Assembly: GCA_017551545.1 (NCBI GenBank)
Contig: JAFZLJ010000055.1
Span: 35 to 64,034, forward strand
Direction of reading: 5' to 3'
Source: Treponema sp.
Lineage (GTDB): Bacteria > Spirochaetota > Spirochaetia > Treponematales > Treponemataceae
Length of the DNA: 64,000 bases
The stretch's first letter is position 1, and every line of letters starts with the position of its first letter. Of this stretch, positions 13,036 to 60,651 are shown piece after piece. The position numbers and the translations under genes are program-made. The notes under the pieces were generated by a model. It made no database searches. It was not told where the DNA came from and saw nothing but the letters and a program-made list of their open reading frames with translations.

Positions 13036-14502
13036 ATGATGAAGAAATGTAAAATACTGATGATTTTTTTGATTGGTTTTGTTGCAGCATTTACATTCTG
13101 GAGCTGTGGAACAACCCCAGCACCTGAGCAGACAGAAGTTACTGAGCCAACAGAGATCCCTGAGCCAACAGAGGTTCCTGAGCTTGTCGAAGGGCAAACA
13201 GAAGAGGTGGCCCTTCAGGAACCACAGGATCCACCGAATATTGCATTTGCAAAGCAGCTTAAGGAATTGCTCGACAAGGGTGATGTAAAGGCTGCAATTG
13301 CTCTTTTTGACACTATTCCTCCTGAACTTAAGGATGATATTGAACTTAAGATTGTTCTTGCTTCACTTTATGTTTCTGATGCTGATTATGATATGGCTAT
13401 AAAGGTTGCAGATGAAGTTCTTGCAATTGACCCTGAAAATCTTGATGCACTTGAAATAAAAACATTTTGTGCAAAGGCAAAGGGCGATAGTACAACCTAT
13501 AAAGCTGCTGCAAAAGCAATTCTTGCTACAGATCCTTATAATGCACAGATAAATATCATGGAAGGCGACGAGCAGGCTCTTAATCATAAATGGAAGCTTG
13601 CACGCGATGCCTACAGTAAAGCACTTAAATCTGAACCGGATAACACAGATGCCCTTTACGGCTATGCAAAAATGACATATTACATGGATGACCTTAAGCT
13701 TGCAAAAGAAACATGTCAGACTATTCTTGATAAGGATCCGGAAAATGCACAAGCTCTTGCCCTTATGGGAAAGCTTGCTGCCGAAGATTTTAACTATGTT
13801 CGTGCAATAAAGCTTACACAGGATGCCCTTGTATACGACCCTGACAATTATGATTTTTATCTTGATATGGGAACATATTACCGCTATCAGGGAAAATACA
13901 GTGAATCTATAAAATGCTGGACTAAAGCAACAGAAATCATTCCTGATTATTTCTTAGCCTATGCTTATCTTGCAGGTATTTATGATGAACAGAATCAGTT
14001 TGAGTTAGCTTTACAGAATTACCGCATGGTTATTAAAACAAATCCTGATTATTATTATGCTTATGAATCTACTGCAATTCTTGAATATCACTTTGGAAAT
14101 TATAAATATGCGCGAGCTTTGTTTGACCAGGCATATTCATATAGTGACAGCTGGGCCTATAAGCTTATGAATATTGCTATGTACTTAAAAGAAGGCGACA
14201 AGAATACCGCAAAACAGGAAGCACAGGCTTTGATGAAAAAGCTTGATCGTGAATCAACAGAATACAATCTTGTTCGTTTTTATGTTGACACATACAGCAA
14301 AAATGCGGAAACTTCACTTGTAAATAAAATCAACAAAGAAGATAATAACAATAAAAAAGGAAAAATGTTGTTCTACATGGGACTTTTCTATGAAATCAAT
14401 GGTTCTATAGAAACTGCCCAGGAATATTATGCTAAGGTTACAGCGTTCCAGGCACCAATGTTCTTTGAATATAGAATAGCAGAATGGGGACTTGGTTTAT
14501 GA
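13036..14502 (+). CDS. TPR-repeat lipoprotein
   Basis: Lipobox-like FWSC, Pro/Glu/Thr linker, multiple TPR units (..A...Y...L...P.N..A). Confidence 0.88.
   Translation: MMKKCKILMIFLIGFVAAFTFWSCGTTPAPEQTEVTEPTEIPEPTEVPELVEGQTEEVALQEPQDPPNIAFAKQLKELLDKGDVKAAIALFDTIPPELKDDIELKIVLASLYVSDADYDMAIKVADEVLAIDPENLDALEIKTFCAKAKGDSTTYKAAAKAILATDPYNAQINIMEGDEQALNHKWKLARDAYSKALKSEPDNTDALYGYAKMTYYMDDLKLAKETCQTILDKDPENAQALALMGKLAAEDFNYVRAIKLTQDALVYDPDNYDFYLDMGTYYRYQGKYSESIKCWTKATEIIPDYFLAYAYLAGIYDEQNQFELALQNYRMVIKTNPDYYYAYESTAILEYHFGNYKYARALFDQAYSYSDSWAYKLMNIAMYLKEGDKNTAKQEAQALMKKLDRESTEYNLVRFYVDTYSKNAETSLVNKINKEDNNNKKGKMLFYMGLFYEINGSIETAQEYYAKVTAFQAPMFFEYRIAEWGLGL
13123..13194 (+). repeat. 4 x 18-bp coding tandem repeat ending in a REP family C copy
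   Basis: cctgagcagacagaagtt/actgagccaacagagatc/cctgagccaacagaggtt/cctgagcttgtcgaaggg = PEQTEV TEPTEI PEPTEV PELVEG. Confidence 0.88.
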
Positions 14503-15680
14503 GTCAGTTACAGAGGGTTCTTTCGCTTGGTGGAAGGACAATTACTTTAATTGGTACAGCACATGTTTCGGCCGAAAGTGTTGCAGAAGTTGAAAATGCT
14601 ATAAGAGAGCTTAAGCCCGACAGTGTTGCAATAGAACTTGATGAAAAACGTGCGGATTCAATCCGTAATAAAGATAAATACCGCGAACTTGATATTGTAA
14701 AGGTTTTGCGTCGTGGTGAAGGCTTTCTTCTTCTTGCAAACCTTGTACTTGCTTCTTTTCAGCGCAGAATGGGCCAGAATGTAGGCGTAAATCCTGGTGA
14801 TGAAATGCTTGCAGCAATGCGTGTAGCCGATGAATTAAATATTCCTACCGTTATGGCAGACCGCGCTATTCAAATTACACTTAAGCGTGCCTGGGCTAAA
14901 AATTCCTTCTGGGGAAAATGCAAGCTTTTGGCAACACTTCTTTCAAGTGCTTTTTCTAAAGAAGATATGAGCGCTCAGGACATTGAAAACATCAAGGAAA
15001 AGAATGAGATGGATTCAATGATGAACGAGCTTTCGGAATACATGCCTGTTGTAAAAGAAGTTCTTATTGATGAGCGAAACACTTATCTTGCCGATAAAAT
15101 CTGGAACAGCCCTGGAAATAAGGTTGTTGCAGTCCTTGGTGCAGGACATCTTGATGGTGTAGTAGAAAATCTTGAAAAAATAGCAGGCGGACAGAAAGTG
15201 AATATTGACGAAATTGATGTTGTTCCTCCAAAAACTGTTGCTGCAAAGATTATTCCTTGGATTATTCCTGTTTTGATTGTTGTATTATTTGTTCTAGGTT
15301 ATATTTTTGGTGGACGTGAAATCGCTAAAGAAATGATATTAACCTGGATTTTCTGGAATTCTGTATGTGCTGGGGTTGCAACTATAATAGGTGCTGGACA
15401 TCCGATAACAATACTTGCTGCTATTATAAGTGCGCCACTTACTTCTTTATGTCCGACTATTGGTTGTGGTTTTGTGACTGCAATAGTTCAGGCTATTGTG
15501 TGTAAACCCAAAATTCGGGATATTGAAACTCTGCAAGATGATGTAACATTTAGAGGATTCTATAAAAATCGAATTCTTCGAATTTTATTAATATTTATAT
15601 TATCATCTATTGGTAGTACAATTGGAACATTTATTGCTGGTGGAAAGATGGGTGGAATCGCAGCAGCGTCCAATGCATAG
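14499..15680 (+). CDS. TraB/PrgY (TraB/GumN family) protein with C-terminal TM helices
   Basis: LIGTAHVS..S, VAIELD..R, PG.EM..A, ADR.I.ITL.RAW, LIDERN, VLGAGHL.G; ATGA overlap with the TPR gene. Confidence 0.9.
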   Translation: MSQLQRVLSLGGRTITLIGTAHVSAESVAEVENAIRELKPDSVAIELDEKRADSIRNKDKYRELDIVKVLRRGEGFLLLANLVLASFQRRMGQNVGVNPGDEMLAAMRVADELNIPTVMADRAIQITLKRAWAKNSFWGKCKLLATLLSSAFSKEDMSAQDIENIKEKNEMDSMMNELSEYMPVVKEVLIDERNTYLADKIWNSPGNKVVAVLGAGHLDGVVENLEKIAGGQKVNIDEIDVVPPKTVAAKIIPWIIPVLIVVLFVLGYIFGGREIAKEMILTWIFWNSVCAGVATIIGAGHPITILAAIISAPLTSLCPTIGCGFVTAIVQAIVCKPKIRDIETLQDDVTFRGFYKNRILRILLIFILSSIGSTIGTFIAGGKMGGIAAASNA

Positions 15681-15777
15681 ATTCCCGTGTCAAGCACGGG
15701 AATGACAGAGATGTGGTCCCTGAGCCTGTCGAAGGGCCCCTTGTTTATTGTCATTGTCGGGCTTGACCCGACAATCT
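15679..15777. repeat. Mosaic REP cluster A(-)/C(+)/A(+)
   Basis: 15679-15707 family A, 15715-15737 GGTCCCTGAGCCTGTCGAAGGGC, 15749-15777 family A. Confidence 0.9.
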
Positions 15778-15874
15778 TTTCTTAGAAAACTCTTATCATA
15801 ACAAGTCGTTATATAACAATCCATATATAGATTTTTTCCCAAAATTTGCGAAAATATGTATATATGGATTGATT

Positions 15875-19170: not shown

Positions 19171-20361
19171 ATGTGGGAAGATTTTATAAACGCTTTAAAT
19201 AATTTTGTACGCAACAAGACAAGAACATTCCTTTCTCTGCTTGGTGTAATCATTGGTGTAGCTTCGGTAATTGTAATTACAAGTATTGGTTCAAGCTCTA
19301 CAAAACAGGTTGCCGACACTTTTGGTTCTGCCGGTCTTGATATGGTAAGTATTTCTTCAGGCGGTATGTGGCGTGGACGAAGTGCAGTAAGCATTAAGTT
19401 CAATGATACTTTCCGCGATAACCTTTTTGAAAACGTAGAAAATATTAAGACAATCTGGTACAAGAACTCTTTGAGTGCAACTGTTACTTACGGTGAAACT
19501 TCTAACTCTGTAAACTGTTCTGCAATTGAAACAGGCTACCTTCAGGCACTTGGAATGGAGCTTGAAGAAGGCGGCCGTTATTTTAATGTAAGCGACAACG
19601 AAGAGGGAACTCAGAAAATCATTTTGAATCACGATACTGCCGAAAGCTTTTTCCCTGCAGGAGACGCTGTTGGTAAAAAGATTCTTGTTGTAGTAAGCCG
19701 TGTTTCGTTCAGCTTTGAAGTAATTGGTGTCTTAAAGGAACAGACAACAGGTATGGAAAACAGTTCTGCATATGTACCACGCGGTTTTTATGACAAAAAG
19801 ATTTCGCCTAATGCAGATGCAGCAACTGTAATGGTTCAGGCTGTAAGCGAAGATAAGGCACAAGGTCTTGTAGATAAAATCAAGGAATACTGTACAAGCC
19901 TTAGCGGAACAGACACCTCTGTAAGCGTTTCTACAATGCAGACAATGATAGACCAGATCAGTTCCATTACAACAACACTTTCGACAATGCTCAGTGCTAT
20001 TGCAGCAATTTCGCTTCTTGTTGGTGGTATTGGAATTATGAATATCATGATTGTAACAGTAACAGAACGCAAGCAGGAAATTGGTATCCGAAAAGCTCTT
20101 GGTGCCAGCCCGAACGCAATACGGCAGCAGTTCCTTGTTGAATCTGCAAGTATCACGCTTATTGGTGGTTTCTTTGGAGTTTTAGTAGGGATTCTGATAA
20201 GTCTGGCGGTAGAATATGTCCAGAAGCAGTCATACGTAATAAACACAAACGCCTGTATCATAGCATTTGTGTTCAGTGTGTTTGTAGGTATTTTCTTTGG
20301 ATTGAATCCGGCAAGCCGCGCGGCTAAGTTGGACCCGGTAATTGCACTTAGTGGTGAGTAG
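19171..20361 (+). CDS. MacB/FtsX-type ABC permease
   Basis: RTFLSLLGVIIGVASVI, ISLLVGGIGIMNIM.V.VTER..EIGIRKALGA, PA.RAAKLDP. Confidence 0.95.
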   Translation: MWEDFINALNNFVRNKTRTFLSLLGVIIGVASVIVITSIGSSSTKQVADTFGSAGLDMVSISSGGMWRGRSAVSIKFNDTFRDNLFENVENIKTIWYKNSLSATVTYGETSNSVNCSAIETGYLQALGMELEEGGRYFNVSDNEEGTQKIILNHDTAESFFPAGDAVGKKILVVVSRVSFSFEVIGVLKEQTTGMENSSAYVPRGFYDKKISPNADAATVMVQAVSEDKAQGLVDKIKEYCTSLSGTDTSVSVSTMQTMIDQISSITTTLSTMLSAIAAISLLVGGIGIMNIMIVTVTERKQEIGIRKALGASPNAIRQQFLVESASITLIGGFFGVLVGILISLAVEYVQKQSYVINTNACIIAFVFSVFVGIFFGLNPASRAAKLDPVIALSGE

Positions 20362-20424
20362 AGATTGTCGGGTCAAGCCCGACAATGACACACTTTGTCA
20401 TTCCCCGGCTTGACCGGGGAATCT
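20362..20424. repeat. REP family A doublet between convergent genes
   Basis: 20362-20390 (GTCGG stem, minus) and 20396-20424 (CCCCG/CGGGG stem, plus). Confidence 0.9.
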
Positions 20425-20428
20425 CTTA

Positions 20429-22129
20429 TTAATATCCGTCCGACATTTCGCGGTTGGCATCTTTCTTACAAAGTTCATCATAAACAAGTGAACGTCTGCG
20501 CAAATCTTCCTTGAGTTCTTTAGGGAACGGCATGTTGCGCCAGAAGATACCGCGAACGTCCTTTTCAAGACGCTGTACACCGGTAGATTCCTTTGTCATC
20601 CACAGGATGTAATCTTCAATAAAGAATTCCTTAACGTCACCCTTGAGTTTGGCCTGGTCAAAGTGCTGGTAGTACTGACCTGTAAGACCTTCTTCCATCC
20701 AGTAGTAAGAAGCCTTTTCCTTTGCAACCTGCCAGCGCAAATCTGCAACGGCTGTAAGAACTGCAATGCGGAGGTCCTTTGGATACATTGGAACAACAAT
20801 ACGTCCACGGCTTGTTACACGGTTGTAGCGGTCGAATGGTTCCCAGCAGAAGCCTCTGTCGCCATAAGTTGGAACAAGACAAACATAAGGAACAATTCGG
20901 TTAGGAATATTTTTATGTACACGGCAGAATACACCTGGATCAATTGATTCAATCCAGCGCATTACTTCAATTACGTTTTCGCGGGTTCCTGTTCCGTTTT
21001 CGGTACAGTGGTAGAATTCGCGTGTGAAAATAGGGAACTGGTTACCACGACGACCAATTGTCATCTTTGCCATCTGGCGGATTGTTTCAAATTCAATATT
21101 GATTGCACTTGTGTCTACCTGAACAATAGGACCGGAATCCTGAATCTTATTCTGAACGCTGTCGTAAACGCCCTTTGCTTCCTGGAATTCTGCAAGTGCC
21201 TTTGAAAGTTCCTTATCATTGCGTGAAAGGCGGTGAAGCAAATCTGTAATTTCAGAGAAAAGCTTGCGCTGAGATTCTGAAAGACCCTGTGTATGTGGTT
21301 CCATACCAATAATAGGGCTGTGCTGGCACAAAGAATCAACTCTGTTACGAAGCTCAACTTCAATCATTGAGCGTTCATTTTCTTTTATATGAAGAATATT
21401 TTCTGAGCTTTGAAGTTTTCCGGAGTTCTTTGACTGCAGCTGCATAAGACGAGCCTGTTCTGCACTGGCTGCCTGTTCCGGAGAAAGATTTCTCTGTGGA
21501 GTTTTCTTTTCATCTGTCATTGAGTTGTTCATTCGGCCTGAAGCAATTTCCTTGAACCACTCATCAACATAAAGTACAGGCTCCTGAGGCTTGTTTTCAA
21601 AAATTATGCGCGAAAAGAAATCCTTCTGTTCTGCTTTAAAAAGTGAAGGAAGAAGAACACCGAATCTCATGAGCATGCGTTTTGGCATTGGCAAGTTGAT
21701 ATCTGCCATTTTTGGCGCCATTCCGCGAAGAAGTTCCCAATAACAGGTAACAATCTGCTGGCGGTAAACTGCACGATCTTTTGGATCCTGGCAGGTAAGA
21801 TATTTAGAAAGCACCTGATGAACTCGTTGTGCCGACTGATTTTCGTTTGTAAGAACTGTTTTATAATATTTTGGATCTTCGTAGACATTTGAAGGAGTGT
21901 CATTCTTAAGCTTTTCAAGAGGAGCAAATTCCTTAAGACTTAAGTTTACTTCATGAACGCCGCCGCTTCCTGCTGTGTGAGTATGCGATTCTGAAGAATT
22001 TTTAGAAAGTAAATTAGGATTAAAGGAATCCGATGCGCTAGGCATGTTATCAATATCTTCGATAGATACTGATGATTCTGTATTTGCTAACAATGCAGCA
22101 ATTTCCGGATCCAATTCTGCTTCTGCCAT
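20429..22129 (-). CDS. Conserved hypothetical cytoplasmic protein with central coiled coil
   Basis: Long ORF with host-like codon usage and SD GGGAG before ATG 22129; Trp/Tyr-rich C-terminal domain (WMEEGLTG.YY, FIEDYILW); function unrecognised. Confidence 0.8.
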   Translation of the reverse strand: MAEAELDPEIAALLANTESSVSIEDIDNMPSASDSFNPNLLSKNSSESHTHTAGSGGVHEVNLSLKEFAPLEKLKNDTPSNVYEDPKYYKTVLTNENQSAQRVHQVLSKYLTCQDPKDRAVYRQQIVTCYWELLRGMAPKMADINLPMPKRMLMRFGVLLPSLFKAEQKDFFSRIIFENKPQEPVLYVDEWFKEIASGRMNNSMTDEKKTPQRNLSPEQAASAEQARLMQLQSKNSGKLQSSENILHIKENERSMIEVELRNRVDSLCQHSPIIGMEPHTQGLSESQRKLFSEITDLLHRLSRNDKELSKALAEFQEAKGVYDSVQNKIQDSGPIVQVDTSAINIEFETIRQMAKMTIGRRGNQFPIFTREFYHCTENGTGTRENVIEVMRWIESIDPGVFCRVHKNIPNRIVPYVCLVPTYGDRGFCWEPFDRYNRVTSRGRIVVPMYPKDLRIAVLTAVADLRWQVAKEKASYYWMEEGLTGQYYQHFDQAKLKGDVKEFFIEDYILWMTKESTGVQRLEKDVRGIFWRNMPFPKELKEDLRRRSLVYDELCKKDANREMSDGY

Positions 22130-23423: not shown

Positions 23424-26400
23424 ATGCACCATCGCGCCGTAAAAAACAGATTTTTGTTTTTAACTATTGTTCTCTTTTGCGCAAAGCTTTTTTGCGGCGA
23501 GATGGCAATTCCCCGTTCTGTTTATGTAATTTCTACAAAATATTTTGATTTTCTTTTTCCGCTCGAAAAGGAACAGACTGTAAGGTTTCTTGCCGAACAG
23601 GCAGATGATATTTATCTTAATGCAAAACAAACCTTTAACTGCGATTATGATATCAGAACTATAGTAGTTGTTTCTCCGGATTCAGATACCCTTTCTGTAA
23701 AATATACTGCTTCTCCGTATAACCGCATTGTAATTTTTGATGCCGTTGGACGACTTGAAGCAAGCTCGTATGCAAGCGGATTACTTGATTTATTTGCACA
23801 TGAAGTTGGAAGGGCAGTAAGTCAGTCAATCCGTTCTAAACCAATGGCGTTTCTTTCAAAGTATTTTTTAGGTGACTCTTTCCAGCCGGCAGGCCTTCTT
23901 AATGTACCGTACTCTTTCCTTGAAGGAGCAGTTTATGCAGAAGACGAAAAAAGCATGTCTGGCATTTTATATGACAACTGGAATCTTGAACTTTTAATGC
24001 AGGCTAAGCTTGAAAATAAATTTCCGTCGCTTCTGCAGGTTTCCGGCGCCTATGATATTTATCCGGTAAATAGAATTGACTATATTGCTGCCGCTTCTTT
24101 TTATGCATATATTCAGCAGTTGTGGGGAATAGAAAAATTCGGAGAATACTGGCAGGAATGCGGAAAGTTGAATTTCTTTAAGCTAGACAAAGGAATTTTT
24201 CGCAAGGTTTATGGAGAAGAAATTACAAAGGTCTGGCAGGATTTTATAGAAGCAATACCTGTTCCGGAAGTTTCGGCTCAGGAAGAAGAAAAGACAAAAC
24301 AGTTTTTTAAAACAGATTACGATTCAAATTACAAATATATTGTAAGCACAAATTATGGTCTTGTCTGGTATGATGAATTAAAGGAAGAGGTTGATATTTC
24401 CGGTTTTTATGATTATCAGAGTATTAAACAGCTGCTTTTTCTTGCAAATAATATCACCAATCTTACAGTTTCTCCCGACGGACGCTTTCTTGTAGTTTCG
24501 CATGTTCAGGGTGGTATACGCGAAAAATTTGAACATGACCTTGTGCGTATTTATGATTTAAAAGAACGAAAATTCCTTTCTGAAAAGTACGAAATGCGCG
24601 ACGGTTCAATTGTGCGGCTAGAAGACGGAAGATTTGCTGTTGCCGGAAACTATGTTGATGACGGTTATTCCTGCCTGCAGATTTATGAATCGCCTGTGCT
24701 TGATTCTTTGCTTGGGTTTGAATGCGATGTTTATAAAGGACTTGTTTATTCAAGAAAGTTTGAAAGCAATGTAATTCCTTATAGTCCTGTTGCTCTTGGA
24801 AAAAATCATTTTGCGTGTCTTTTGAACAGCAGCAACGAATGGTACATAATGCTTTCTGATATTACACCAGAACTTTCTGCAGGCGGACAGAATGATGAAG
24901 ATTTTTATACAATCTCTGTCGGCGGGAACAATGAAAGCTTTGCCGAAGTATTGAAAATCCGTAATTTGCGTTATGCCGATTATGTTGAAGTTTCAGGTAA
25001 AAAAAGCGACAGAGATAAAAACTTCTGCCTGTTATATGATTATGTTCTTCAAAATGAAACTTCGTTTGTTCGTACCGGCTGGCTTTTCTTTGATAAAAAT
25101 TCAATTCCGTTAAGGTCTCTTGTTTCCGGCTGTGACTATTATGGCGGTATGAATTGCGGGGCAATGTTTGACTGTAAGCTTTATTATTCTTCGCAGCGAT
25201 TTGATTATTCTGAATTAAAATATGTTTCGCTTAATGATATTCCGCTGGAAGAAGCAAAGATTTCGTATTCTGCAGGCCCTATGCCAACAACTGCAATTCC
25301 TATACCAACGACTGCAATTCCTGAGCCAACAACTGCGGTTCCTGAGCCTGTCGAAGGACCATATCAAGAAACCCTTGAACTAAAAAAATACTCTCCGTTC
25401 AAATATATGTACAAAGGTTCATTTTCTTTCTTCATGCCTGTGCGCGATATAACGCTTGATGATGGAATAAAACGGGAACCTGGTCTTGGTGCAATTTTTG
25501 AAACACAGTCCGATCCTTTTTCGAATAACGAGCTTCTTATTTCTGCAGCAAAAGGTTTTGTACCGCTTGATTTTGAACAGATTTTTAATGCAGATAAAAA
25601 GAAACTGGATGAGCTTAATGCGCAGAAAATTGAATTAAGCAAGGATGCAGCTTTTGCAATTTATTTTAAAAACACATCTACTCCTGCAGACATTGTTGCT
25701 TCCGGTGTGTTTAAGTTTAATGAATCGGGTGAATATACTCTTTCTGCTTTCAGCGATATTGTGTTCAGTCTTCCGCTTGCCATGACATTCAGACGGCTTA
25801 CTTTTGACGTATCGCTTGCTTTTAATGCTTCTACAACATATTGGGATGTTACACAGACAGAGCGTTTCCCGAATCTTACAGACTGGCCTTCGCTTTCAAA
25901 ATCATACAGACAATGGCAGAGCACTGCAGGCCTGCTGTATTCAAATATTCATCAGTATGGAATCTCTCCGTTGAAGAAAGTTGGTATAGCAGCCGGAGTA
26001 AAATTAATTTCTTCGTGGGAATGGGGTAATTGGAATCCTTATCAGATAAACGCTGGAATATACGGCACAGGTGAAATTCCATTTTTAATGCCGGTACAGA
26101 ATTATAAAAATATCATTTTATGTCTGCCAACTACAGTTCACGCAGAATTGTTTTATACAAACGGAAAAGCCGTAGATGCTTATGCACAGCTTATGCTTTC
26201 GGGAATGGAAATTCAAAACGGTTTCTGGCGATTGTATTTTCCGCGGGCAGGCCTTTATTTAGGTTACGATATAGCTCTTGAATACGACACTGCAACAGTA
26301 CGCCTGCCGGACCTTCGCCACCTGGAACGGTTTTATGATGTATTTGCTCACTGCACTTTAAATGACAGCGTTTATGTAAAATTAGATTTTGGGTTGACCC

Positions 26401-26510
26401 CGGTAATAGGAAAGTTTTCGAAGGTTCAGTTCCAGTCCTCACTGCGGTTAGAAAAATATCTGCGCAGCGAAGAATGGAAACTGAAGTTTGATATTGATAT
26501 TAAATACTAG
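23424..26510 (+). CDS. Large exported protein (degenerate peptidase-like N-domain, propeller-like middle, probable C-terminal beta-barrel)
   Basis: Signal peptide; AHEVGR..FLEG; VSPDGRFL propeller-type motif; amphipathic C-terminus ending KFDIDIKY. Confidence 0.65.
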   Translation: MHHRAVKNRFLFLTIVLFCAKLFCGEMAIPRSVYVISTKYFDFLFPLEKEQTVRFLAEQADDIYLNAKQTFNCDYDIRTIVVVSPDSDTLSVKYTASPYNRIVIFDAVGRLEASSYASGLLDLFAHEVGRAVSQSIRSKPMAFLSKYFLGDSFQPAGLLNVPYSFLEGAVYAEDEKSMSGILYDNWNLELLMQAKLENKFPSLLQVSGAYDIYPVNRIDYIAAASFYAYIQQLWGIEKFGEYWQECGKLNFFKLDKGIFRKVYGEEITKVWQDFIEAIPVPEVSAQEEEKTKQFFKTDYDSNYKYIVSTNYGLVWYDELKEEVDISGFYDYQSIKQLLFLANNITNLTVSPDGRFLVVSHVQGGIREKFEHDLVRIYDLKERKFLSEKYEMRDGSIVRLEDGRFAVAGNYVDDGYSCLQIYESPVLDSLLGFECDVYKGLVYSRKFESNVIPYSPVALGKNHFACLLNSSNEWYIMLSDITPELSAGGQNDEDFYTISVGGNNESFAEVLKIRNLRYADYVEVSGKKSDRDKNFCLLYDYVLQNETSFVRTGWLFFDKNSIPLRSLVSGCDYYGGMNCGAMFDCKLYYSSQRFDYSELKYVSLNDIPLEEAKISYSAGPMPTTAIPIPTTAIPEPTTAVPEPVEGPYQETLELKKYSPFKYMYKGSFSFFMPVRDITLDDGIKREPGLGAIFETQSDPFSNNELLISAAKGFVPLDFEQIFNADKKKLDELNAQKIELSKDAAFAIYFKNTSTPADIVASGVFKFNESGEYTLSAFSDIVFSLPLAMTFRRLTFDVSLAFNASTTYWDVTQTERFPNLTDWPSLSKSYRQWQSTAGLLYSNIHQYGISPLKKVGIAAGVKLISSWEWGNWNPYQINAGIYGTGEIPFLMPVQNYKNIILCLPTTVHAELFYTNGKAVDAYAQLMLSGMEIQNGFWRLYFPRAGLYLGYDIALEYDTATVRLPDLRHLERFYDVFAHCTLNDSVYVKLDFGLTPVIGKFSKVQFQSSLRLEKYLRSEEWKLKFDIDIKY
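25278..25360 (+). repeat. 3 x 21-bp coding tandem repeat ending in a REP family C copy
   Basis: cctatgccaacaactgcaatt/cctataccaacgactgcaatt/cctgagccaacaactgcggtt/cctgagcctgtcgaaggacc = PMPTTAI PIPTTAI PEPTTAV PEPVEG. Confidence 0.88.
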
Positions 26511-29890: not shown

Positions 29891-29912
29891 CCCTTCGACA
29901 GGCTCAGGGCCC
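29891..29912. repeat. REP family C copy between the permease and gntR
   Basis: CCCTTCGACAGGCTCAGGGCCC. Confidence 0.85.
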
Positions 29913-34597: not shown

Positions 34598-34619
34598 CCC
34601 TTCGACAAGCTCAGGGACC
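34598..34619. repeat. REP family C copy between ptsI and der
   Basis: CCCTTCGACAAGCTCAGGGACC. Confidence 0.85.
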
Positions 34620-40027: not shown

Positions 40028-40151
40028 GGGGCCCCTGAGCTTGTCGAAGGGCCCTATAAACACACGTCATTGCGAGCGAAGCGTGGCAATCCAGTTATTA
40101 AAATGCATTCTAATAACTGGATTGCCACGTCGTTTCACTCCTCGCAATGAC
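40028..40151. repeat. REP family C (40028-40054) plus an 86-bp family B doublet (40066-40151)
   Basis: GGGGCCCCTGAGCTTGTCGAAGGGCCC; the doublet is a near reverse complement of 37361-37446, including the spacer. Confidence 0.92.
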
Positions 40152-41275: not shown

Positions 41276-42163
41276 TTACTGTATACTTCCCGGCACCTCA
41301 GAAAGGGCATTTTGTGCTGCACACCAGGTTCCTTTTTCAAGGGATTTCTGCATGTCTCCGGTGTTGAGGTATTCGTGTAAAAAGCCTGCATTAAAGCTGT
41401 CGCCGCATGCAATTGTGTTTACGGCTTTTACTTTTAAGGTAGGGCATTCAAAAAAATCTCCCCGGCAGGCGGCAAGAGTAGAGTCAATTCCCCGGGTGAT
41501 AATAAAAATATTATTGTATTCAAGGCTTTTTGCGCAGATATTTTCCTGATTTGCAGGCATTCCAAAAGTTGCCTCAAACTCATCTGAATTGATTTTTACA
41601 ATGGAAGGCACTGCAGTATTGAGTGCACATTTCAGTTCATCGCCAATAAAGTCTGCAAGGACGAGCTTTCCCTTGTCCAGGGCAATTCCGCAGAGAACTG
41701 CATAAATATCAGGCGACCATTTTCCCTGACGGCTTCCGGCAATGAGCAGGGCCTCGCATTCGTCAAGTTTTTCTGTAACAAGCTTAAGGAATTTTATTTC
41801 TGTAGCCGCGTAGTCTTCTTCTGGAACAGGCTCACCCGCAATAAGCTCAGTTGTCGTGCCTGCAGTAGAGTCAAGCAGCGTCCAGCAGTCGCGGATTTTC
41901 CCCGGAGAATCAACATACCACAAATCAAGGCCATCGCGTTCTGCAAGTTCAATAAATTCCGCAGAGTTTTTCTGACCAAGCGGGCATACAGTAACAGCGC
42001 TTCCTTTTTCAAGCTGGGCAAGTACACGAGCAGAGTTCACAGCTTTTCCGGAAGCATAAAGTCCGTAGTGATGAGCCCTGTTTATTTTTTCAAGAGCAAG
42101 CTTTTCAAAAACAACAGTGCGCTGGTAAGTAGCACTCATGCAAACGCAAAGGATTTTTTTCAT
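41276..42163 (-). CDS. PfkB-family sugar kinase (1-phosphofructokinase/LacC-like)
   Basis: SGKAVNSARVL..L, KINSDE, ITRG, NTIACGDSFNAGF. Confidence 0.85.
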   Translation of the reverse strand: MKKILCVCMSATYQRTVVFEKLALEKINRAHHYGLYASGKAVNSARVLAQLEKGSAVTVCPLGQKNSAEFIELAERDGLDLWYVDSPGKIRDCWTLLDSTAGTTTELIAGEPVPEEDYAATEIKFLKLVTEKLDECEALLIAGSRQGKWSPDIYAVLCGIALDKGKLVLADFIGDELKCALNTAVPSIVKINSDEFEATFGMPANQENICAKSLEYNNIFIITRGIDSTLAACRGDFFECPTLKVKAVNTIACGDSFNAGFLHEYLNTGDMQKSLEKGTWCAAQNALSEVPGSIQ

Positions 42164-42966
42164 AGCGCAACCCCCGCGGTCCCTGAGCTTGTCGAAGGGG
42201 TCGAAGGGCCCTCAGTATAAGCATACGCATTATGAAAATGAATACTCTCTTCATTCTCTGCTTCTACGCTGAACCATTTAAAATTCTTTTTTGCCAGGGC
42301 TGTATAAACTTCACGCACAACATCTTCAACAAAACGAGGATTGTCATAGGCATGTTCTGTTACATATTTTTCATCCTGACGCTTGAGCAATGAGTAGAGT
42401 GGCGAAGAAGCGCAATTTTCAATCAATTCAATAATATCTTCAATCCAGAAAAATTCAGAATAAAACAGCTTTACCTTTACAGTTCCACGCTGATTATGAG
42501 CACCGTATTCACTGATTGCCTTTGAACAAGGACACAAGGTTGTAACTGGAACTTCTATAGTAATGTAAAACTTTCGTTCATCTGCGCTTACAGTTCCTTC
42601 AAAAGAACAGTTATATTCCATAATTCCCGAAGCCTGCGAAACCGGAGCAGCTTTTTCAATAAAATAAGGAAAGCTTACAGTTCCAAAGGCCTGCTCGGCA
42701 TCAAGCTTTTTGCGCATTTCTTCAAGCATATCAAGGAAATGCTGCATCGTAACATCCTGATGATATTTATGGAACACTTCAATAAAGCGCGACATATGAG
42801 TTCCCTTAAAATTGTGAGGAAGGTTTACAAAAAGATCTACTGTTGCAGTTGTCTGCTGCTGCTTGTGATTTTTGTCGAGGACAGTTACCGGGTATCGAAC
42901 GCCCTTTACGCCAACTTTTTGAAGCGGAATCTTACGTGTGTCTGTTTCGTTTTGAATGTCGCGCAT
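42160..42966 (-). CDS. folE2: GTP cyclohydrolase IB
   Basis: D.QNE.D.R.IP.QKVG, KGTHMSRF, TLCPCSK.IS.YGAHNQR, LKR.DEK, NPRFVED.VR, ESIH.HNAYA. Confidence 0.95.
   Translation of the reverse strand: MRDIQNETDTRKIPLQKVGVKGVRYPVTVLDKNHKQQQTTATVDLFVNLPHNFKGTHMSRFIEVFHKYHQDVTMQHFLDMLEEMRKKLDAEQAFGTVSFPYFIEKAAPVSQASGIMEYNCSFEGTVSADERKFYITIEVPVTTLCPCSKAISEYGAHNQRGTVKVKLFYSEFFWIEDIIELIENCASSPLYSLLKRQDEKYVTEHAYDNPRFVEDVVREVYTALAKKNFKWFSVEAENEESIHFHNAYAYTEGPSTPSTSSGTAGVAL
42178..42211. repeat. REP family C copy with a 9-bp duplication, translated as the FolE2 C-terminal tail
   Basis: GGTCCCTGAGCTTGTCGAAGGG-GTCGAAGGG-CCC; the minus strand reads GPSTPSTSSGT. Confidence 0.85.
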
Positions 42967-43017
42967 GAATATATTATACGAAAAAGGGGAGAAGAGAATC
43001 AACAGCACTACATTGGA

Positions 43018-48317: not shown

Positions 48318-48332
48318 AGTAAAACTCCATAC

Positions 48333-48416
48333 GTCATTGCGAGCGCAGCGTGGCAATCCACATATTAAAAGAAATTCTCAAATGTGGATTGCCACGCCCT
48401 TCGGGCTCGCAATGAC
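48333..48416. repeat. REP family B doublet with 26-bp spacer
   Basis: 48333-48359 and 48386-48416; spacer ACATATTAAAAGAAATTCTCAAATGT. Confidence 0.92.
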
Positions 48417-48423
48417 GGATTGT

Positions 48424-52096: not shown

Positions 52097-53722
52097 ATGA
52101 GTAACGAAAATAACAACGAAAAGAGAGATCCATTGCTCTGTCATTGGGCAGATCAGATGGCTAGTCAGATTATCCGCGAAAAGGGTGATCTTGATTCTTA
52201 CACCTGTGCTTCAGGAATTACACCTTCCGGAACTGTTCATCTTGGAAACTTCCGCGAAATTATTACTGTTGATTTAGTAGTACGTGCCCTTCGCGACCGT
52301 GGTAAAAAGGTTCGCTTTATTTATTCATGGGACGACTACGATGTATTCCGCAAAGTTCCTGCAAATATGCCGGACCCAGAGGTTTTGGAAAAATATCTTA
52401 GATATCCGATTACAGAAGTACCAGATACAACTGGCCGCAATGAAAATTATGCACGTCATCACGAGGTAGATATTGAAACTCAGCTTCCACGCGTTGGAAT
52501 TGCTCCGGAGTTTTTGTACCAGGCAAGCCGTTATCGTGCAAACCGTTATGCAGAAGGAATGCGCAAGGCAATGCAGAACCGCGACGTTATTAAGGAATGC
52601 TTGAACGAATACCGCGATGACGCACACAAAATGAAGCCTGAGGACGTATATTGGCCTGTTTCTATTTTCTGCGGTAAGTGTAACAAAGATACAACAGAAA
52701 TTACAGACTACGACGGCGAATACGGAATTACCTATAAGTGTGAATGCGGCAACTGCAAAACTGCAGATATCCGCGTCTTCAAGGGTGCAAAGCTTGGCTG
52801 GCGTGTTGACTGGCCTATGCGTTGGAACGAAGAAAAAGTAGTATTCGAACCGGGTGGAAAGGATCATATCAGCCCGGGTGGTTCGTACGATACAGCAAAA
52901 TTGGTTTCTAAGAGAATCTACGGCTGGGACGCACCGGTAACAATGCGCTATGACTTTGTAAACTTAAAGGGAGTGCCTGGAAAGATGTCTTCTTCAAAAG
53001 GAAAGGTAATTGCTTTGCCGGACGCACTTGATGTTTACCAGGCAGAAGTACTCCGCTACCTTTTTGCAGGAACTCGTCCAAATACAGAATTTGCTATCAG
53101 CTTTGATATGGATGTTCTTAAGGTTTACGAAGACTACGACAAGACAGAACGTATTGTTTACGGAATAGATAAGGCAAAGAGCGATGATCACTTCAACAAA
53201 GAAAAGAGAATCTACATGCTCAGCCAGATTGACGGAAAGATTCCAGACGTAATGCCATACCAGGTAACAATCCGCCAGCTTACAACATTGCTCCAGATTT
53301 ACTCTGGCGACGTTGATGCTGTTATTAAGGCACTTGGTGACGTAAAGCCTGAACAGGAAGAACGCCTCCACCGCAGAATTGAATGTGCATGGTTCTGGGT
53401 AAAGCATTCGGCTCCAGACTGCGCACCTGATTTCTGTTTTGAACTCCGCAAGGATGGCAGCAAGGCAGACCTTTCAGGCGACATTCTTAAGGCTGTTCAG
53501 CGCGTTCGTGATGAAGTTGTTCCAAAGCTCGATACCTTCCAGATGGACAAGGAGTGCCAGCAGGCAATGTACGACATTGCAACAGAAATGGGACTTGAAT
53601 CAAAAGCCTTGTTCACAGCCCTTTACCAGGCACTCATTGCCAAAGAACAGGGACCACGCTTGGGAAGCTTCTTTAGGATTATTGGTAAAGAGAGATTACA
53701 GAAGATTTTAAGTGTGTATTAG
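52097..53722 (+). CDS. lysS: Lysyl-tRNA synthetase, class I
   Basis: HWAD, ASGITPSG.VHLGNFRE, WRVDWPMRW, GGKDH, KMSSSKG, GPRLG. Confidence 0.96.
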   Translation: MSNENNNEKRDPLLCHWADQMASQIIREKGDLDSYTCASGITPSGTVHLGNFREIITVDLVVRALRDRGKKVRFIYSWDDYDVFRKVPANMPDPEVLEKYLRYPITEVPDTTGRNENYARHHEVDIETQLPRVGIAPEFLYQASRYRANRYAEGMRKAMQNRDVIKECLNEYRDDAHKMKPEDVYWPVSIFCGKCNKDTTEITDYDGEYGITYKCECGNCKTADIRVFKGAKLGWRVDWPMRWNEEKVVFEPGGKDHISPGGSYDTAKLVSKRIYGWDAPVTMRYDFVNLKGVPGKMSSSKGKVIALPDALDVYQAEVLRYLFAGTRPNTEFAISFDMDVLKVYEDYDKTERIVYGIDKAKSDDHFNKEKRIYMLSQIDGKIPDVMPYQVTIRQLTTLLQIYSGDVDAVIKALGDVKPEQEERLHRRIECAWFWVKHSAPDCAPDFCFELRKDGSKADLSGDILKAVQRVRDEVVPKLDTFQMDKECQQAMYDIATEMGLESKALFTALYQALIAKEQGPRLGSFFRIIGKERLQKILSVY

Positions 53723-53726
53723 AAAG

Positions 53727-53841
53727 AGATTGTCGGGTCAAGCCCGACAATGACACAGACAGTCAAGACTGACAATGACACAGACAGTCAAGACTGACAA
53801 TGACACAAGTCTTGTCATTCCCGGGCTTGACCCGGGAATCT
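53727..53841. repeat. REP family A (-), two 25-bp REP-derived tandem units, REP family A (+)
   Basis: 53727-53755; (CAGACAGTCAAGACTGACAATGACA)x2 at 53756-53805; 53813-53841. Confidence 0.92.
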
Positions 53842-53860
53842 CATATTAGAAGAGGTTATC

Positions 53861-58560: not shown

Positions 58561-59443
58561 TTTCATTCCTCCTTTTATGAGGCGCATACAAAAGCGAAAT
58601 TGAAAAAAGTATTATTGCCTGAATGAGCGTGTTTACATCAAAATCGAGGTTTGAATAAAGTGCAAATTTTCCTGAGTAAGTCATAAGCGACGAAATTAAA
58701 ATAGAAACAGGAATTACAAGGGCAGGTCTTGTTCTTGCAATCATTGCTACAGAAAGAGCGTTCCAGCCTAAGCCTGCATAAAAGCTTGTGTGGCATGTAA
58801 AATATATTCCACAGATTGCAGTGGCGCCGGCAAGTGAATGAAGAGAACCGCAGGCAGCTGCAGCAGTAAATGTTATTTTGTTGCAGTTGAATCCGGAATA
58901 AAAAGAAAACTGAGGACTGATGCCGTAAATCTGAGTTTGTTTACCAAAACGTGTTTTTATAAAGAAAAGTTCGAGCAAAATACATAATGCAATTGCTCCA
59001 AAAATGGTGCAGTTCAAAGGGGAAGGCTTTAATATGCTTGCAAAACGATATTGCTGTACAAGATACGGAGTTGCAAGAAGGTTTCCTGTTTTAGTTCTGA
59101 ATGGACCTGAAATAAGGCCGTCAATAAGCGGAATGATTGCAGAAGAGGTTATAAAGGTTGTAAGAAGAAAATCGGCATGCTTGAGCTTATAAAGCAGTTC
59201 ACAGAAAATAAGAATTAGCGCACCTGCTGCAGCCGAAATTATAAACGCGAATGAAACTGCAAAAAAGGCCGGAATATGAACTTTTGCAAACAAGTCGAGC
59301 AGCACGGCACATAAAAAGCCTCCAAGATAAATAAGGCCTTCTCCAGCCAGATTTATGCGTCCTGTTTTAAGTGAAAAAGCAGCTCCTGAACCTGCGAGCA
59401 TATAAATTGCAGAAAGGCTTAGCATAAGTCCAAAGTAGTACAT
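58553..59443 (-). CDS. Nucleoside/simple-sugar ABC permease
   Basis: G.INL.GEG.IY.GG, KT.FG, G.GW....VA..A..P. Confidence 0.82.
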   Translation of the reverse strand: MYYFGLMLSLSAIYMLAGSGAAFSLKTGRINLAGEGLIYLGGFLCAVLLDLFAKVHIPAFFAVSFAFIISAAAGALILIFCELLYKLKHADFLLTTFITSSAIIPLIDGLISGPFRTKTGNLLATPYLVQQYRFASILKPSPLNCTIFGAIALCILLELFFIKTRFGKQTQIYGISPQFSFYSGFNCNKITFTAAAACGSLHSLAGATAICGIYFTCHTSFYAGLGWNALSVAMIARTRPALVIPVSILISSLMTYSGKFALYSNLDFDVNTLIQAIILFSISLLYAPHKRRNENA

Positions 59444-60651
59444 TACACAGCCTCCAGGTTTCCGTCTTTTAATCTGTATTCTACATCGCAATATTCAGAA
59501 GGCCAGGCACCATAAGAAAGGACAAGAACATAGGCTCCGTTTTGAGCAGCTTTTTGTATTCGTTCACAAGTTTTCTGGCAGGTGTTTACATCAAGTCCCT
59601 GAAGCGGATTACATAAAATTAACAGTTCCGGATTTCCGTAAAGCTCTCGTTCAAACATAAGCTTTTGAAGCATGCCTCCGGAAAGACTTGAACATTTTTC
59701 CTGTGGTGTTATGTCTACTCCGCTTGAGTTTATCATTTGAAGGGCAGCAGCAGGTTTCTGGCTTTCGGGAATATCAAGTGAACTTGTAAGCATCTGTTCA
59801 ATTGTAAGGTTTGGAGAAGAACCGGTGAACTTTCTGTCTGTAGGGATAAGTGCTGTTTTAAAAGCGAACTCATGATGTGAGCGCATATTTATAAGTGATT
59901 TTTCAAGTTTATCAAGGCCATCTTCTGCAAGACCTTTTATAAGTGTAATTCTACCGTTGTTGCTCTGTGATATGGGGTCACCAAATGACCCGTGATCTCC
60001 GAGTTTGTCGAAGGGGTTCCCTGCAGGCACAATCTTCCCATCTTTAATATAATCAACTGTGTCGCAGTATTTTTCTGCTTCATCGTAATTATGGGTGATG
60101 ATAATGATGTTCATTCCTTCACCCGCAAGAAGCCTGAGCTTTTCGAAAAGAAAAATCCTCTGATTGTCATCAAGCAGGGCAGAAGGTTCATCAAGAATAA
60201 GAATCTTTGGCTTTTTTATAAGGGCACTTGTGAGCGCAATAAAAAATCGTGTATCGGCTCCGTGTTTTAATACAAGTGAATTAAGGTTTACTTCGGGCAG
60301 CCATTTTTCTGCTTCAGGTTTTAGCAAAAGCTTTTGTTCTTTGTTCAGCCCGAGTAAAAGATTTTCTTTAACAGTAATGTAATCTGCAAGCATAGGCCGC
60401 TGATGAACATAACAGATTCCGTTTTGAATTGCATCTTTTGGGGTACGAAAAACAACAGGCTTCCCGTCTAAAAGAATTGTTCCGCTGTCTGGTGAAAGTT
60501 CGCCGCAGATAATATTTGCAGCAGTTGATTTTCCGGCTCCGTTTTCTCCTAAAAGTGCATGAAGCTGTCCTTCATTAAAACAAAGACTTAATTTATTGAG
60601 AACAGTTTTTTTAGAAAAATGCAGACAAATCTGTCTAAGTTCAAGCGTCAT
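59443..60651 (-). CDS. CUT2-type ABC ATP-binding protein, shortened and degenerate
   Basis: HALLGENGAGKST, LILDEPS..L, IITH, second-half IP.DR and LSGG..QK. Confidence 0.85.
   Translation of the reverse strand: MTLELRQICLHFSKKTVLNKLSLCFNEGQLHALLGENGAGKSTAANIICGELSPDSGTILLDGKPVVFRTPKDAIQNGICYVHQRPMLADYITVKENLLLGLNKEQKLLLKPEAEKWLPEVNLNSLVLKHGADTRFFIALTSALIKKPKILILDEPSALLDDNQRIFLFEKLRLLAGEGMNIIIITHNYDEAEKYCDTVDYIKDGKIVPAGNPFDKLGDHGSFGDPISQSNNGRITLIKGLAEDGLDKLEKSLINMRSHHEFAFKTALIPTDRKFTGSSPNLTIEQMLTSSLDIPESQKPAAALQMINSSGVDITPQEKCSSLSGGMLQKLMFERELYGNPELLILCNPLQGLDVNTCQKTCERIQKAAQNGAYVLVLSYGAWPSEYCDVEYRLKDGNLEAV
59994..60015. repeat. Degenerate REP family C copy in frame in the ATPase linker
   Basis: GATCTCCGAGTTTGTCGAAGGG; the minus strand reads PFDKLGD. 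Confidence 0.65.

What the first reader, a model, noticed from the sequence alone, without database searches (positions are those of the whole stretch)
13123..60015. A palindromic REP (family C) inserted in frame into four unrelated proteins, in three reading frames
Seen: the ~22-bp GGTYCCTGAGCYTGTCGAAGGG element occurs intergenically (15715, 29891, 34598, 40028) and inside CDSs. It reads VPELVEG in the TPR lipoprotein (13173), VPEPVEG in the 1028-aa exported protein (25337), PSTSSGT in the FolE2 tail (42178) and PFDKLGD in the ABC ATPase linker (~59994, degenerate). All sites are linkers or termini. Established: Rickettsia palindromic elements create new peptide segments in this way. Inference: an analogous selfish-repeat-to-protein process operates in this spirochaete.
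Basis: partly seen in the sequence, partly recalled or inferred. Interest (0 to 1): 0.78.

Follow-up and report, generated by a model that had tools for sequence, protein, structure and literature searches.

The report
Short repeat turned into protein linkers
A 22-base GC-rich repeat scattered through this gut-type Treponema genome has become translated peptide in flexible linkers and tails of unrelated proteins, a process already known from Rickettsia and other bacteria.

Summary
GGTYCCTGAGCYTGTCGAAGGG occurs 7 times with at most 1 mismatch, where 0 are expected. An eighth, degenerate copy sits at 59994 (expected 0.003).

- **Location.** Four copies are intergenic; three start 6-7 nt after a stop codon and the fourth 34 nt after one. 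Four lie inside genes: a TPR lipoprotein tether, the disordered linker of a 1028-aa exported protein, the FolE2 C-terminal tail and an ABC ATPase interdomain linker.
- **Orthologues.** In three hosts the peptide is lineage-specific. REP-type FolE2 tails occur in 7 of 121 rows, all at least 85% identical.
- **Recurrence.** The 1028-aa linker carries the repeat in either orientation in one subclade only. Two proteins 97% identical overall differ in orientation.
- **Codons.** The peptide alone would give the repeat's nucleotides with probability about 2e-5 to 5e-5.
- **ABC case.** It remains unproven.
- **Caveats.** The element is only weakly palindromic, no transposase is in the window, and mobility is inferred.

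Intragenic REPs are already published for many species, so this is a new member of a known kind.

One unexpected result: the 18-nt core recurs exactly in 126 or more loci from 20 named phyla.

The parts
13173..13194 (+). REP-C copy inside the TPR lipoprotein gene, read as VPELVEG (residues 47-53), in the tether after lipobox Cys24
13211..13223 (+). Possible partial inverted partner. It is the reverse complement of the two ends of the copy at 13173, without the central 9 nt. It is read as part of ALQEP.
   Evidence: 71-nt fold -23.4 kcal/mol against -18.3 +/- 2.8 for shuffles; 8 of 200 shuffles fold as well; tentative
13036..14502 (+). Host gene 1: TPR-repeat lipoprotein, 488 aa
15715..15736 (+). 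Intergenic REP-C copy, 34 nt after the stop of the TraB/GumN-family gene, flanked on both sides by hairpins of another repeat family
25337..25358 (+). REP-C copy inside the 1028-aa exported protein gene, read as VPEPVEG (residues 639-645). Its one mismatch (final G to A) pairs with the T at its 5' side.
25270..25343 (+). Three 21-nt tandem units (PTTAIPx) that run into the left half of the REP-C copy. A 99%-identical homologue lacks one unit.
   Evidence: (family D10)
23424..26510 (+). Host gene 2: 1028-aa exported protein with no Pfam family. The model shows an N-terminal alpha/beta domain and beta-propeller (to 616), a disordered linker (620-649) and a C-terminal all-beta domain.
29891..29912 (-). 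Intergenic REP-C copy, sense to the operon. It lies 6 nt after the stop of the ABC-2 permease gene and 5 nt before the ATG of the GntR gene.
34598..34619 (-). Intergenic REP-C copy, sense, 6 nt after the stop of the PEP-utilising enzyme gene. The listed TTG start of the downstream Der/EngA ORF lies inside it, but the ATG 13 nt downstream is the likelier start.
40030..40051 (+). Intergenic REP-C copy, sense, 7 nt after the stop of the GH94 gene, followed by a hairpin pair of another repeat family
42178..42208 (+). REP-C copy with its right half (9 nt) duplicated, antisense to FolE2. It is read as PSTPSTSSGT within the 16-residue tail GPSTPSTSSGTAGVAL.
42160..43008 (-). Host gene 3: GTP cyclohydrolase FolE2. 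The Pfam domain ends at residue 263 of 282, and the stop TGA overlaps the ATG of the downstream pfkB-family kinase gene (41276-42163).
59994..60015 (+). Degenerate REP-C copy (18 of 22), antisense to the ABC ATPase gene, read as PFDKLGD (about residues 213-219) in the interdomain linker
59443..60651 (-). Host gene 4: ABC ATPase of a Bmp/PnrA-type transporter operon. It is 402 aa, and its linker and the start of its second domain are shorter than in relatives of 433-540 aa.

Best explanation
REP-C is a short interspersed repeat of the REP type: a 22-nt conserved core, about 24-27 nt with its flank, GC-rich in a 40% GC genome. The host is an uncultured Treponema.

Its usual place is directly 3' of a stop codon, in the sense orientation. 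This is typical of REPs, which are transcribed at mRNA 3' ends.

The element is short, and five of its six frames lack a stop. Copies that arise in, or are recombined into, regions with no structural constraint therefore survive and are translated. Such regions include a lipoprotein tether, a disordered interdomain linker and the last codons of a gene. Each copy adds 7-16 residues.

In FolE2 a copy abutting the gene end displaced the stop codon. Translation now runs through the repeat to a TGA that overlaps the next gene's ATG.

In the two linkers, replication slippage has duplicated units that include the left half of the repeat. This adds P/E/T-rich heptads.

**Shown:** the nucleotide identity, the lineage restriction, the recurrence in both orientations, and the disorder of one site.

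**Inferred:** that new copies arise by transposition in trans or by recombination between copies, and that the segments are selectively neutral.
For: - **Copy number.** 7 copies with at most 1 mismatch plus 1 degenerate copy, against 0 and 0.003 expected.
- **Position of intergenic copies.** 3 of 4 start 6-7 nt after a stop and the fourth 34 nt after. All 4 are sense to the upstream gene.
- **Codon test.** Probabilities of 2e-5 to 5e-5, with rare codons used.
- **FolE2.** 7 of 121 rows have REP-type tails of 12-18 residues, against a median of 5 in the others. Rows at 87% and 85% identity (P0010, P0011) lack the tail.
- **TPR lipoprotein.** The tether is hypervariable in all 121 rows. VPELVEG appears only at 97% identity or more.
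- **1028-aa family.** 17 of 103 rows carry strict motifs, all at positions 626-657.
- **Tree of 48 rows.** 18 of 26 rows in one clade (SH-aLRT 97) carry a motif and 0 of 22 outside do. At least 8 state changes are needed.
- **Orientation switch.** P0250 (sense) and P0252 (antisense) are 992/1021 identical, and the differences are concentrated in the linker.
- **Structure.** In the AlphaFold2 model (mean pLDDT 83.6, pTM 0.82) the only long internal low-confidence segment is 620-649, which contains the copy.
- **Slippage.** There are 21-nt tandem units at 25270-25343. One unit is missing in a 99%-identical homologue.
- **Precedent.** Di Nocera et al. 2013 (PMC3733652; abstract, sections 6 and 15, and passages read) report REPs inside ORFs of many species and REPs close to 3' gene ends.
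Against: - No transposase or other mobility gene was found among the 50 window ORFs scanned.
- No orthologous DNA could be fetched, so no empty site, target duplication or exact insertion boundary was seen.
- Calls in orthologues rest on peptides alone. These linkers are P/E-rich everywhere, and PEPVE-like strings also occur in rows with no other sign of the repeat (P0132, P0154).
- AEPAEGQTEEV in an 80%-identical TPR orthologue (P0138) could be an old diverged copy, or could be ancestral sequence.
- The ABC ATPase copy is degenerate. It was compared only with relatives of 64% identity or less.
- Folding energies of 5 of 7 copies do not beat shuffles, a sixth is borderline (z -1.8, 8 of 200 shuffles as good), and only 1 of 7 clearly does. 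A hairpin-dependent mechanism is therefore not evident here.
- The orientation bias (7 of 8 copies sense to the local gene) is not significant.
Confidence: 0.8

Rival explanations
1. There is no mobile element. Copies spread and turn over only by host processes: replication slippage, and recombination or gene conversion between existing copies. The orientation switches in the 1028-aa linker would then be local inversions or conversions.
For: - Half-unit duplications occur at 42200-42208, and 21-nt tandem units at 25270-25343.
- There is a copy-number difference between 99%-identical proteins.
- The antisense linker of P0252 keeps GP before and TA after the core, as an inversion of the sense form would (inferred from peptides only).
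- No transposase lies in the window.
Against: - Slippage and conversion cannot place a first copy at a new locus.
- The copies lie in eight unrelated contexts.
- The same core occurs in 20 named phyla.
Confidence: 0.3
2. REP-C is chiefly a selected cis-acting RNA or DNA signal at gene ends, for example a 3' mRNA-stabilising or ribosome-pausing hairpin, or a protein-binding site. The coding copies are by-products, or are kept for the same signal.
For: - 3 of 4 intergenic copies begin 6-7 nt after a stop codon, and all 4 are sense.
- The pair flanking the core covaries: 161 of 170 copies can pair, and T-A is enriched when the 3' base is A (Fisher p 4e-4, copies not independent).
- The CDS copy at 25337 carries such a compensated pair.
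- The core is invariant across phyla.
Against: - The hairpins are weak in this genome.
- No Rfam family matches any copy.
- The FolE2 and ABC copies are antisense to their genes.
- Presence and absence are patchy among close orthologues, which argues against an essential signal at those sites.
Confidence: 0.15
3. The coding matches are chance or convergent. P/E-rich low-complexity linkers would happen to spell PE[LP]VEG.
For: All TPR and 1028-aa homologues have P/E/T/Q-rich linkers, and PEPVE-like strings occur without other repeat features.
Against: - The codon-level probability is 2e-5 to 5e-5 per site.
- The copies are 20-22 of 22 identical at the nucleotide level, where 0 hits are expected.
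- S/T/G-rich antisense peptides (PSTGSG) occur in the same linkers and in the FolE2 tail.
Confidence: 0.02

Closest known systems
Intragenic REPs of the GTAG and CGTC superfamilies (Di Nocera, De Gregorio and Rocco 2013, PMC3733652)
   Same: - They are short (20-40 bp) interspersed repeats, mostly just 3' of ORFs between unidirectional or convergent genes.
- Some copies lie wholly inside ORFs of unrelated proteins and add amino acids.
- Some copies lie at ORF ends (abstract and section 15 read).
   Different: - REP-C has no GTAG or CGTC/TGTC tag.
- It lacks the 8-9 bp stem beginning with A-T pairs, the 4-5 nt loop and the CCA tail that define the CGTC families (section 6).
- Its stem is 4-5 pairs around an 11-nt centre.
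- Neither CCTGAGC nor TCGAAGG occurs in that paper's main text.
Rickettsia palindromic elements (RPE)
   Same: Repeat copies are inserted in frame into unrelated genes and translated as extra peptide segments at sites the fold tolerates. Di Nocera et al. equate RPE-4 and RPE-6 with CGTC REPs (section 6).
   Different: - RPE-1-type elements are about 100-150 bp and encode tens of residues (recalled, not from a call).
- REP-C adds 7-16 residues and is not a long palindrome.
- REP-C is not confined to one genus.
REPINs mobilised by RAYT transposases
   Same: - Both are short GC-rich repeats.
- In other phyla 41 of 140 REP-C core copies have an inverted partner within 80 nt, which is a doublet architecture.
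   Different: - In the window only one tentative, truncated doublet exists (13173 with 13211).
- No RAYT is in the window.
- REPIN-RAYT systems are described as mostly vertically inherited and lineage-specific (abstract of 10.1101/2022.05.22.493013, seen in the listing). The REP-C core, in contrast, is identical across 20 phyla.
Coxiella burnetii MITEs that alter proteins (PMC5896051)
   Same: Non-autonomous repeats that contribute to protein and small-RNA evolution (title and start of abstract seen in the listing only).
   Different: MITEs are longer elements with terminal inverted repeats. REP-C has none.

Membership tests
REP (repetitive extragenic palindromic) elements, broad sense | Short (about 20-40 bp) sequence repeated many times and dispersed in one genome | tested here: met
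   8 copies in 64 kb, in eight unrelated contexts. The genome-wide number is unknown.
REP (repetitive extragenic palindromic) elements, broad sense | Mostly extragenic, close to 3' ends of genes, between unidirectional or convergent genes | tested here: met
   All 4 intergenic copies are of this kind, and 3 start 6-7 nt after a stop. However, 4 of the 8 copies are intragenic, an unusually high share.
REP (repetitive extragenic palindromic) elements, broad sense | Imperfect palindrome able to form a stem-loop | tested here: inconclusive
   The stem is only CCCT/AGGG plus 1-4 flanking pairs. Fold z-scores range from -2.1 to +0.8, and 5 of 7 copies do not beat shuffles, with a sixth borderline. 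The flanking pair covaries.
REP (repetitive extragenic palindromic) elements, broad sense | Cognate RAYT (Y1 HUH transposase) in the same genome | not testable with these tools
   None was found among the 50 window ORFs scanned. The rest of the genome is not available.
CGTC-tagged REP superfamily (Di Nocera 2013) | Terminal CGTC, TGTC or CCTC tag, 8-9 bp stem starting with A-T pairs, 4-5 nt loop, short CCA-like tail | tested here: not met
   The flanks of the window copies read gcacgg, gctcgg, ttgctgg and gagatgt before GG(T/C/G)CCC, with no tag and no A-T start. Another repeat family in the window (for example 53812-53851) does fit this description.
Rickettsia palindromic elements | In-frame insertion into unrelated protein genes, absent from orthologues | tested here: met
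   Shown for FolE2, the TPR lipoprotein and the 1028-aa protein. The ABC ATPase is untested.
Rickettsia palindromic elements | Long (about 100-150 bp) palindromic unit, sequence family of Rickettsia | tested here: not met
   The unit is 22-27 nt. The RPE size is recalled and comes from no call.
MITE | Terminal inverted repeats and target-site duplication, 50-500 bp | tested here: not met
   No conserved sequence extends beyond about 27 nt, and there are no terminal inverted repeats or flanking direct repeats in the aligned copies.
DNA uptake sequences | Species- or family-specific short motif at a density of about one per kb | tested here: not met
   Density is about one copy per 8 kb, and the same core occurs in 20 named phyla. 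The defining density is recalled.

The most novel reading that the evidence does not exclude
REP-C is the Treponema form of a bacteria-wide family of short hairpin repeats. All share an invariant 18-nt core, CCTGAGCYTGTCGAAGGG, while the flanks differ by lineage. Such a core cannot stay exact across 20 phyla by neutral vertical descent. Two explanations remain:
- It is read by a widely conserved factor, or by a promiscuously transferred enzyme with strict sequence needs.
- It spreads horizontally. The same CGGTC-flanked subtype occurs in rumen and gut Bacteroidales and in this Treponema.

Because five of the six frames are open, the family would be a recurrent, domain-wide source of the same few peptide modules in linkers, loops and tails. 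The family also has an unusual habit of nesting or duplicating its halves. All 7 copies with a duplicated right half also have a duplicated left half.
Probability: 0.35. Interest if true: 0.7.

Novelty: new member of a known kind. Interest (0 to 1): 0.5.

Why it matters
- **Annotation.** The finding explains odd tails and linker peptides in Treponema proteins. It warns that such segments, and the ORF starts called inside repeats, are repeat-derived and not functional motifs.
- **Turnover.** Close strains show fast replacement of a linker. Proteins 97% identical overall carry the repeat in opposite orientations. That makes this family a convenient natural system for asking how repeats enter coding sequence.
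- **Wider question.** An 18-nt core is identical in 20 phyla. If confirmed by an exhaustive scan, this raises a concrete and testable question about what recognises or spreads it. The usual view is that REP families are lineage-specific.

Tried and rejected
- **Rfam (E up to 1).** No match at any REP-C copy. The 7 weak matches elsewhere are all below their gathering scores.
- **Literature by sequence string.** No relevant paper. The one hit was an unrelated stem-cell paper.
- **Literature by topic.** Nothing on REPs in Treponema.
- **Long stems flanking the core.** Mean contiguous pairing beyond the core was 2.40 against 2.00 for mismatched flanks. Only about 8 of 139 copies have stems of 7 nt or more, so the idea of a conserved loop on a variable long stem was dropped for most copies.
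- **Hit at 60129-60150.** It has 6 mismatches and was rejected as chance (0.9 expected). It lies in the conserved ABC fold.
- **ABC ATPase orthologue test.** The library holds one representative per 50% cluster. The best hit was 64% identical and aligned only to residue 210, so an insertion could be neither shown nor excluded.
- **Foldseek of the 1028-aa model against PDB.** Only generic beta-propeller matches (TM 0.2 or less over the query), so the host protein could not be named.
- **Orientation bias.** 7 of 8 copies are sense to the local gene, which is not significant.
- **Not used.** Complex prediction was not used, because no binding claim is made.


Full report
**What is there.** The window has 39.8% GC. 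Its proteins have their best named relatives in uncultured Treponema. Its gene content is that of a fibre-degrading gut or rumen organism, with GH10, GH43 and GH94 enzymes and ABC sugar and nucleoside transporters.

The motif GGTYCCTGAGCYTGTCGAAGGG occurs 7 times with at most 1 mismatch, at 13173+, 15715+, 25337+, 29891-, 34598-, 40030+ and 42178+. None of 100 shuffles gave a match. An eighth copy at 59994-60015 has 4 mismatches. Simulated sequence of the same dinucleotide make-up gives 0.003 such hits per window. A 6-mismatch hit at 60129 is at chance level and lies in the conserved ABC fold.

Aligned copies share little beyond a short G-rich 5' flank, so the unit is about 24-27 nt.

**Where the copies sit.** There are four intergenic copies.
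- Three begin 6-7 nt after the stop codon of the upstream gene: 29891, 34598 and 40030.
- The fourth (15715) lies 34 nt after a stop, with a hairpin of a different repeat family in between.
- All four are sense to the upstream gene.

Four copies lie inside genes:
- The tether that follows the lipobox cysteine of a TPR lipoprotein (VPELVEG, residues 47-53).
- A linker of a 1028-aa exported protein without a Pfam family (VPEPVEG, residues 639-645).
- The C-terminal tail of FolE2, read antisense as PSTPSTSSGT within a 16-residue extension. The extension ends at a TGA that overlaps the ATG of the next gene.
- The interdomain linker of an ABC ATPase, read antisense in another frame as PFDKLGD.

A six-frame search of the window for the five possible peptides finds them only at these eight sites.

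**Are the coding copies insertions?**

*FolE2.* The Pfam domain ends at residue 263 of 282. Of 121 rows (the query plus the 120 best of 8000 hits), 7 have tails of the PST[SG]SG type, 12-18 residues long. All 7 are at least 85% identical to the query. The other 114 have a median of 5 residues after HNAYAY. They include rows at 87% and 85% identity that end in YKE and YKQ.

*TPR lipoprotein.* The tether is hypervariable in every one of 121 rows. VPELVEG occurs only in the four hits at 97% identity or more, and PEPVEG occurs once at 77%. An 89%-identical row has an unrelated tether. Two rows carry AEPAEG or SEPAEG at the aligned place, which may be old diverged copies.

*1028-aa protein.* 17 of 103 rows carry strict repeat-type motifs. 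Thirteen are sense and five antisense, with one row carrying both. All lie at positions 626-657 and none elsewhere in these proteins of about 1020 residues.

A tree was built on 48 rows with the linker columns left out. A 778-aa fragment and all rows below 62% identity were dropped. With a slightly looser motif, all 18 carriers fall in one clade of 26 rows (SH-aLRT 97), and none of the 22 rows outside carries a motif. At least 8 changes among the states none, sense, antisense and both are needed.

P0250 (sense) and P0252 (antisense) are 992/1021 identical, with the differences packed into the linker.

*ABC ATPase.* The only search left returns one representative per 50% cluster. The best hit is 64% identical and lacks the peptide. 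The region is a hypervariable linker that is much shorter in the window protein. This case is consistent with insertion but unproven.

**Is the nucleotide match more than the peptide requires?** Yes. Codon usage was taken from 16,717 codons of 34 window genes. On that basis the peptides alone would reproduce the repeat consensus with probability 2.4e-5 (VPELVEG), 1.9e-5 (VPEPVEG) and 5.4e-5 (PSTSSGT). The copies use codons that are rare here: GTC 4% of Val, GGG 3% of Gly, GAG 13% of Glu and TCG 9% of Ser.

**Structure of one site.** An AlphaFold2 model of the 1028-aa protein was built from 95 aligned sequences (mean pLDDT 83.6, pTM 0.82). Its only long internal low-confidence segment is 620-649 (block means 31-34). 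That segment lies between an N-terminal alpha/beta domain with a beta-propeller and a C-terminal all-beta domain. The repeat-derived residues 639-645 lie inside it. Foldseek gave only generic propeller matches.

**How palindromic is it?** Only weakly in this genome. The inverted repeat is CCCT/AGGG plus 1-4 flanking pairs. Of seven folds, one beats shuffles clearly (40030, z -2.1) and the possible doublet at 13173 is borderline (z -1.8, 8 of 200 shuffles as good). The rest do not beat shuffles.

The pair flanking the core nevertheless behaves as a pair. In 170 copies from the window and the fetched loci, 161 can pair. T-A is enriched when the 3' base is A (7 T-A and 4 C-A, against 21 T-G and 131 C-G; Fisher p 4e-4, copies not independent). 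The single mismatch of the coding copy at 25337 is of this compensated kind.

**Slippage.** Three 21-nt tandem units at 25270-25343 run into the left half of the repeat. A 99%-identical homologue lacks one unit. At FolE2 the right 9 nt of the element are duplicated. Orthologues show AVPETS/AVPETE units repeated before AVPELVEG.

**Mechanism.** The copies behave like REPs. These are short repeats that accumulate just after stop codons and are tolerated in coding sequence only where structure imposes no constraint. Five of the six frames are open, so most in-frame arrivals do not truncate the host.

How new copies arise is not shown. Transposition in trans and recombination between copies both remain open. 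The orientation switch between near-identical proteins fits either a local inversion or a replacement.

**Comparison with what is known.** Di Nocera et al. 2013 (PMC3733652; abstract, sections 6 and 15, and passages read) describe the following:
- REPs lying mostly within 20 bp of 3' gene ends.
- REPs wholly inside ORFs of unrelated proteins in several species.
- CGTC-type REPs in five phyla, including Spirochaetes.
- RPE-4 and RPE-6 of Rickettsia as CGTC REPs.

REP-C lacks the tag, stem and loop that define those families, and neither half of its core occurs in that paper's main text. Another repeat family in the window does fit the CGTC description.

The RepRanger paper (PMC12306157, passages only) notes that REP motifs of Spirochaetota resemble those of other taxa. 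It does not give this sequence.

Searches by sequence string and by topic found no description of this element or of REPs in Treponema. About 1.7 million PubMed Central articles and all subscription-only papers were not searched.

**An unexpected wider pattern.** Of these, 119 come from 20 named phyla. The largest groups are Pseudomonadota (47), Chloroflexota (17), Actinomycetota (13) and Bacteroidota (12). None is archaeal and none is from Bacillota.

About 35 chance matches would be expected in the whole 596-Gb collection, and the fraction scanned is unknown. The count alone therefore proves nothing. The flanks do show these are family members and not chance matches. The three bases before the core are CGC, CAC, GTC or TGC in 94 of 139 copies. 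26 copies share the 7-mer CGTTCGC.

Three further features:
- 41 of 140 copies have an inverted partner within 80 nt.
- All 7 copies with a duplicated right half also have a duplicated left half.
- The CGGTC-flanked subtype of the window recurs in rumen and gut Bacteroidales and in Actinomycetota.

In one yak-rumen Bacteroidales contig (L038) a nested copy is read in frame as PSTLRQAQDGAGSGT inside a TonB-dependent receptor barrel.

**Verdict.** The kind of process is already known, so the finding is a new member of a known kind, of moderate interest. The cross-phylum core and the rapid orientation turnover are the parts worth following up.

Noticed in passing
The 5' flanks are lineage-typical: CGTTCGC, GTCAC, CGGTC, GCCTGC. 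41 of 140 copies have an inverted partner within 80 nt.
   Followed up: partly
L038:578-628 (yak-rumen Bacteroidales MAG): A nested REP-C (left half, spacer, full core, extra right half) lies in frame inside a TonB-dependent receptor beta-barrel, read as PSTLRQAQDGAGSGT. The same repeat has therefore become coding in another phylum.
   Followed up: partly
L038, L044, L046, L051, L066, L109, L116; window 42178-42208: Half-unit duplications are coupled. All 7 copies with a second right half also have a second left half, where about 0.8 would be expected if the two were independent. This suggests self-nesting or hairpin-mediated duplication. The window's FolE2 copy has only the right half doubled.
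   Followed up: partly
L086, L087 (Coxiellaceae MAG): The REP-C core sits exactly between the two arms of a different, related-looking hairpin repeat. This hints that several widespread repeat families share one architecture.
   Followed up: no
window 1190-1259, 7505-7544, 15682-15707, 15748-15787, 20354-20434, 29505-29544, 53719-53851: A second repeat family has a TGTC tag, a 9-bp stem beginning ATT and a 5-nt loop. It fits the published CGTC-type REPs. Three 25-nt tandem units occur at 53737-53811.
   Followed up: partly
window 7576-7617, 37360-37446, 40061-40159, 41202-41276, 48328-48421, 60659-60732, 63093-63133: A third repeat family is organised as inverted pairs around an A/T-rich spacer, in intergenic regions and often next to REP-C or the second family. 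Several listed ORF starts (7580, 48356) fall inside these repeats and are probably miscalled.
   Followed up: no
window 42160-42163: The FolE2 stop TGA overlaps the ATG of the pfkB-family kinase gene (ATGA), so the repeat-derived tail ends exactly at the next gene's start. The kinase frame is also open upstream through the repeat, but no start codon lies there.
   Followed up: partly
window 59443-60651: The ABC ATPase of the Bmp/PnrA-type operon is 402 aa, against 433-540 aa in relatives. The linker and the first strands of the second ATPase domain are missing, and the second domain lacks a canonical Walker A motif.
   Followed up: partly
window 23424-26510: The 1028-aa exported protein has no Pfam family. 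Its homologues were found only in Treponema-named or unnamed metagenomic records. The model shows an N-terminal alpha/beta domain, a beta-propeller, a disordered linker and a large C-terminal all-beta domain. Its function is unknown.
   Followed up: partly
window 34582-34608: The TTG start listed for the Der/EngA GTPase ORF lies inside the REP-C copy. An ATG 13 nt after the repeat, preceded by AGAGGA, is the likelier start.
   Followed up: no
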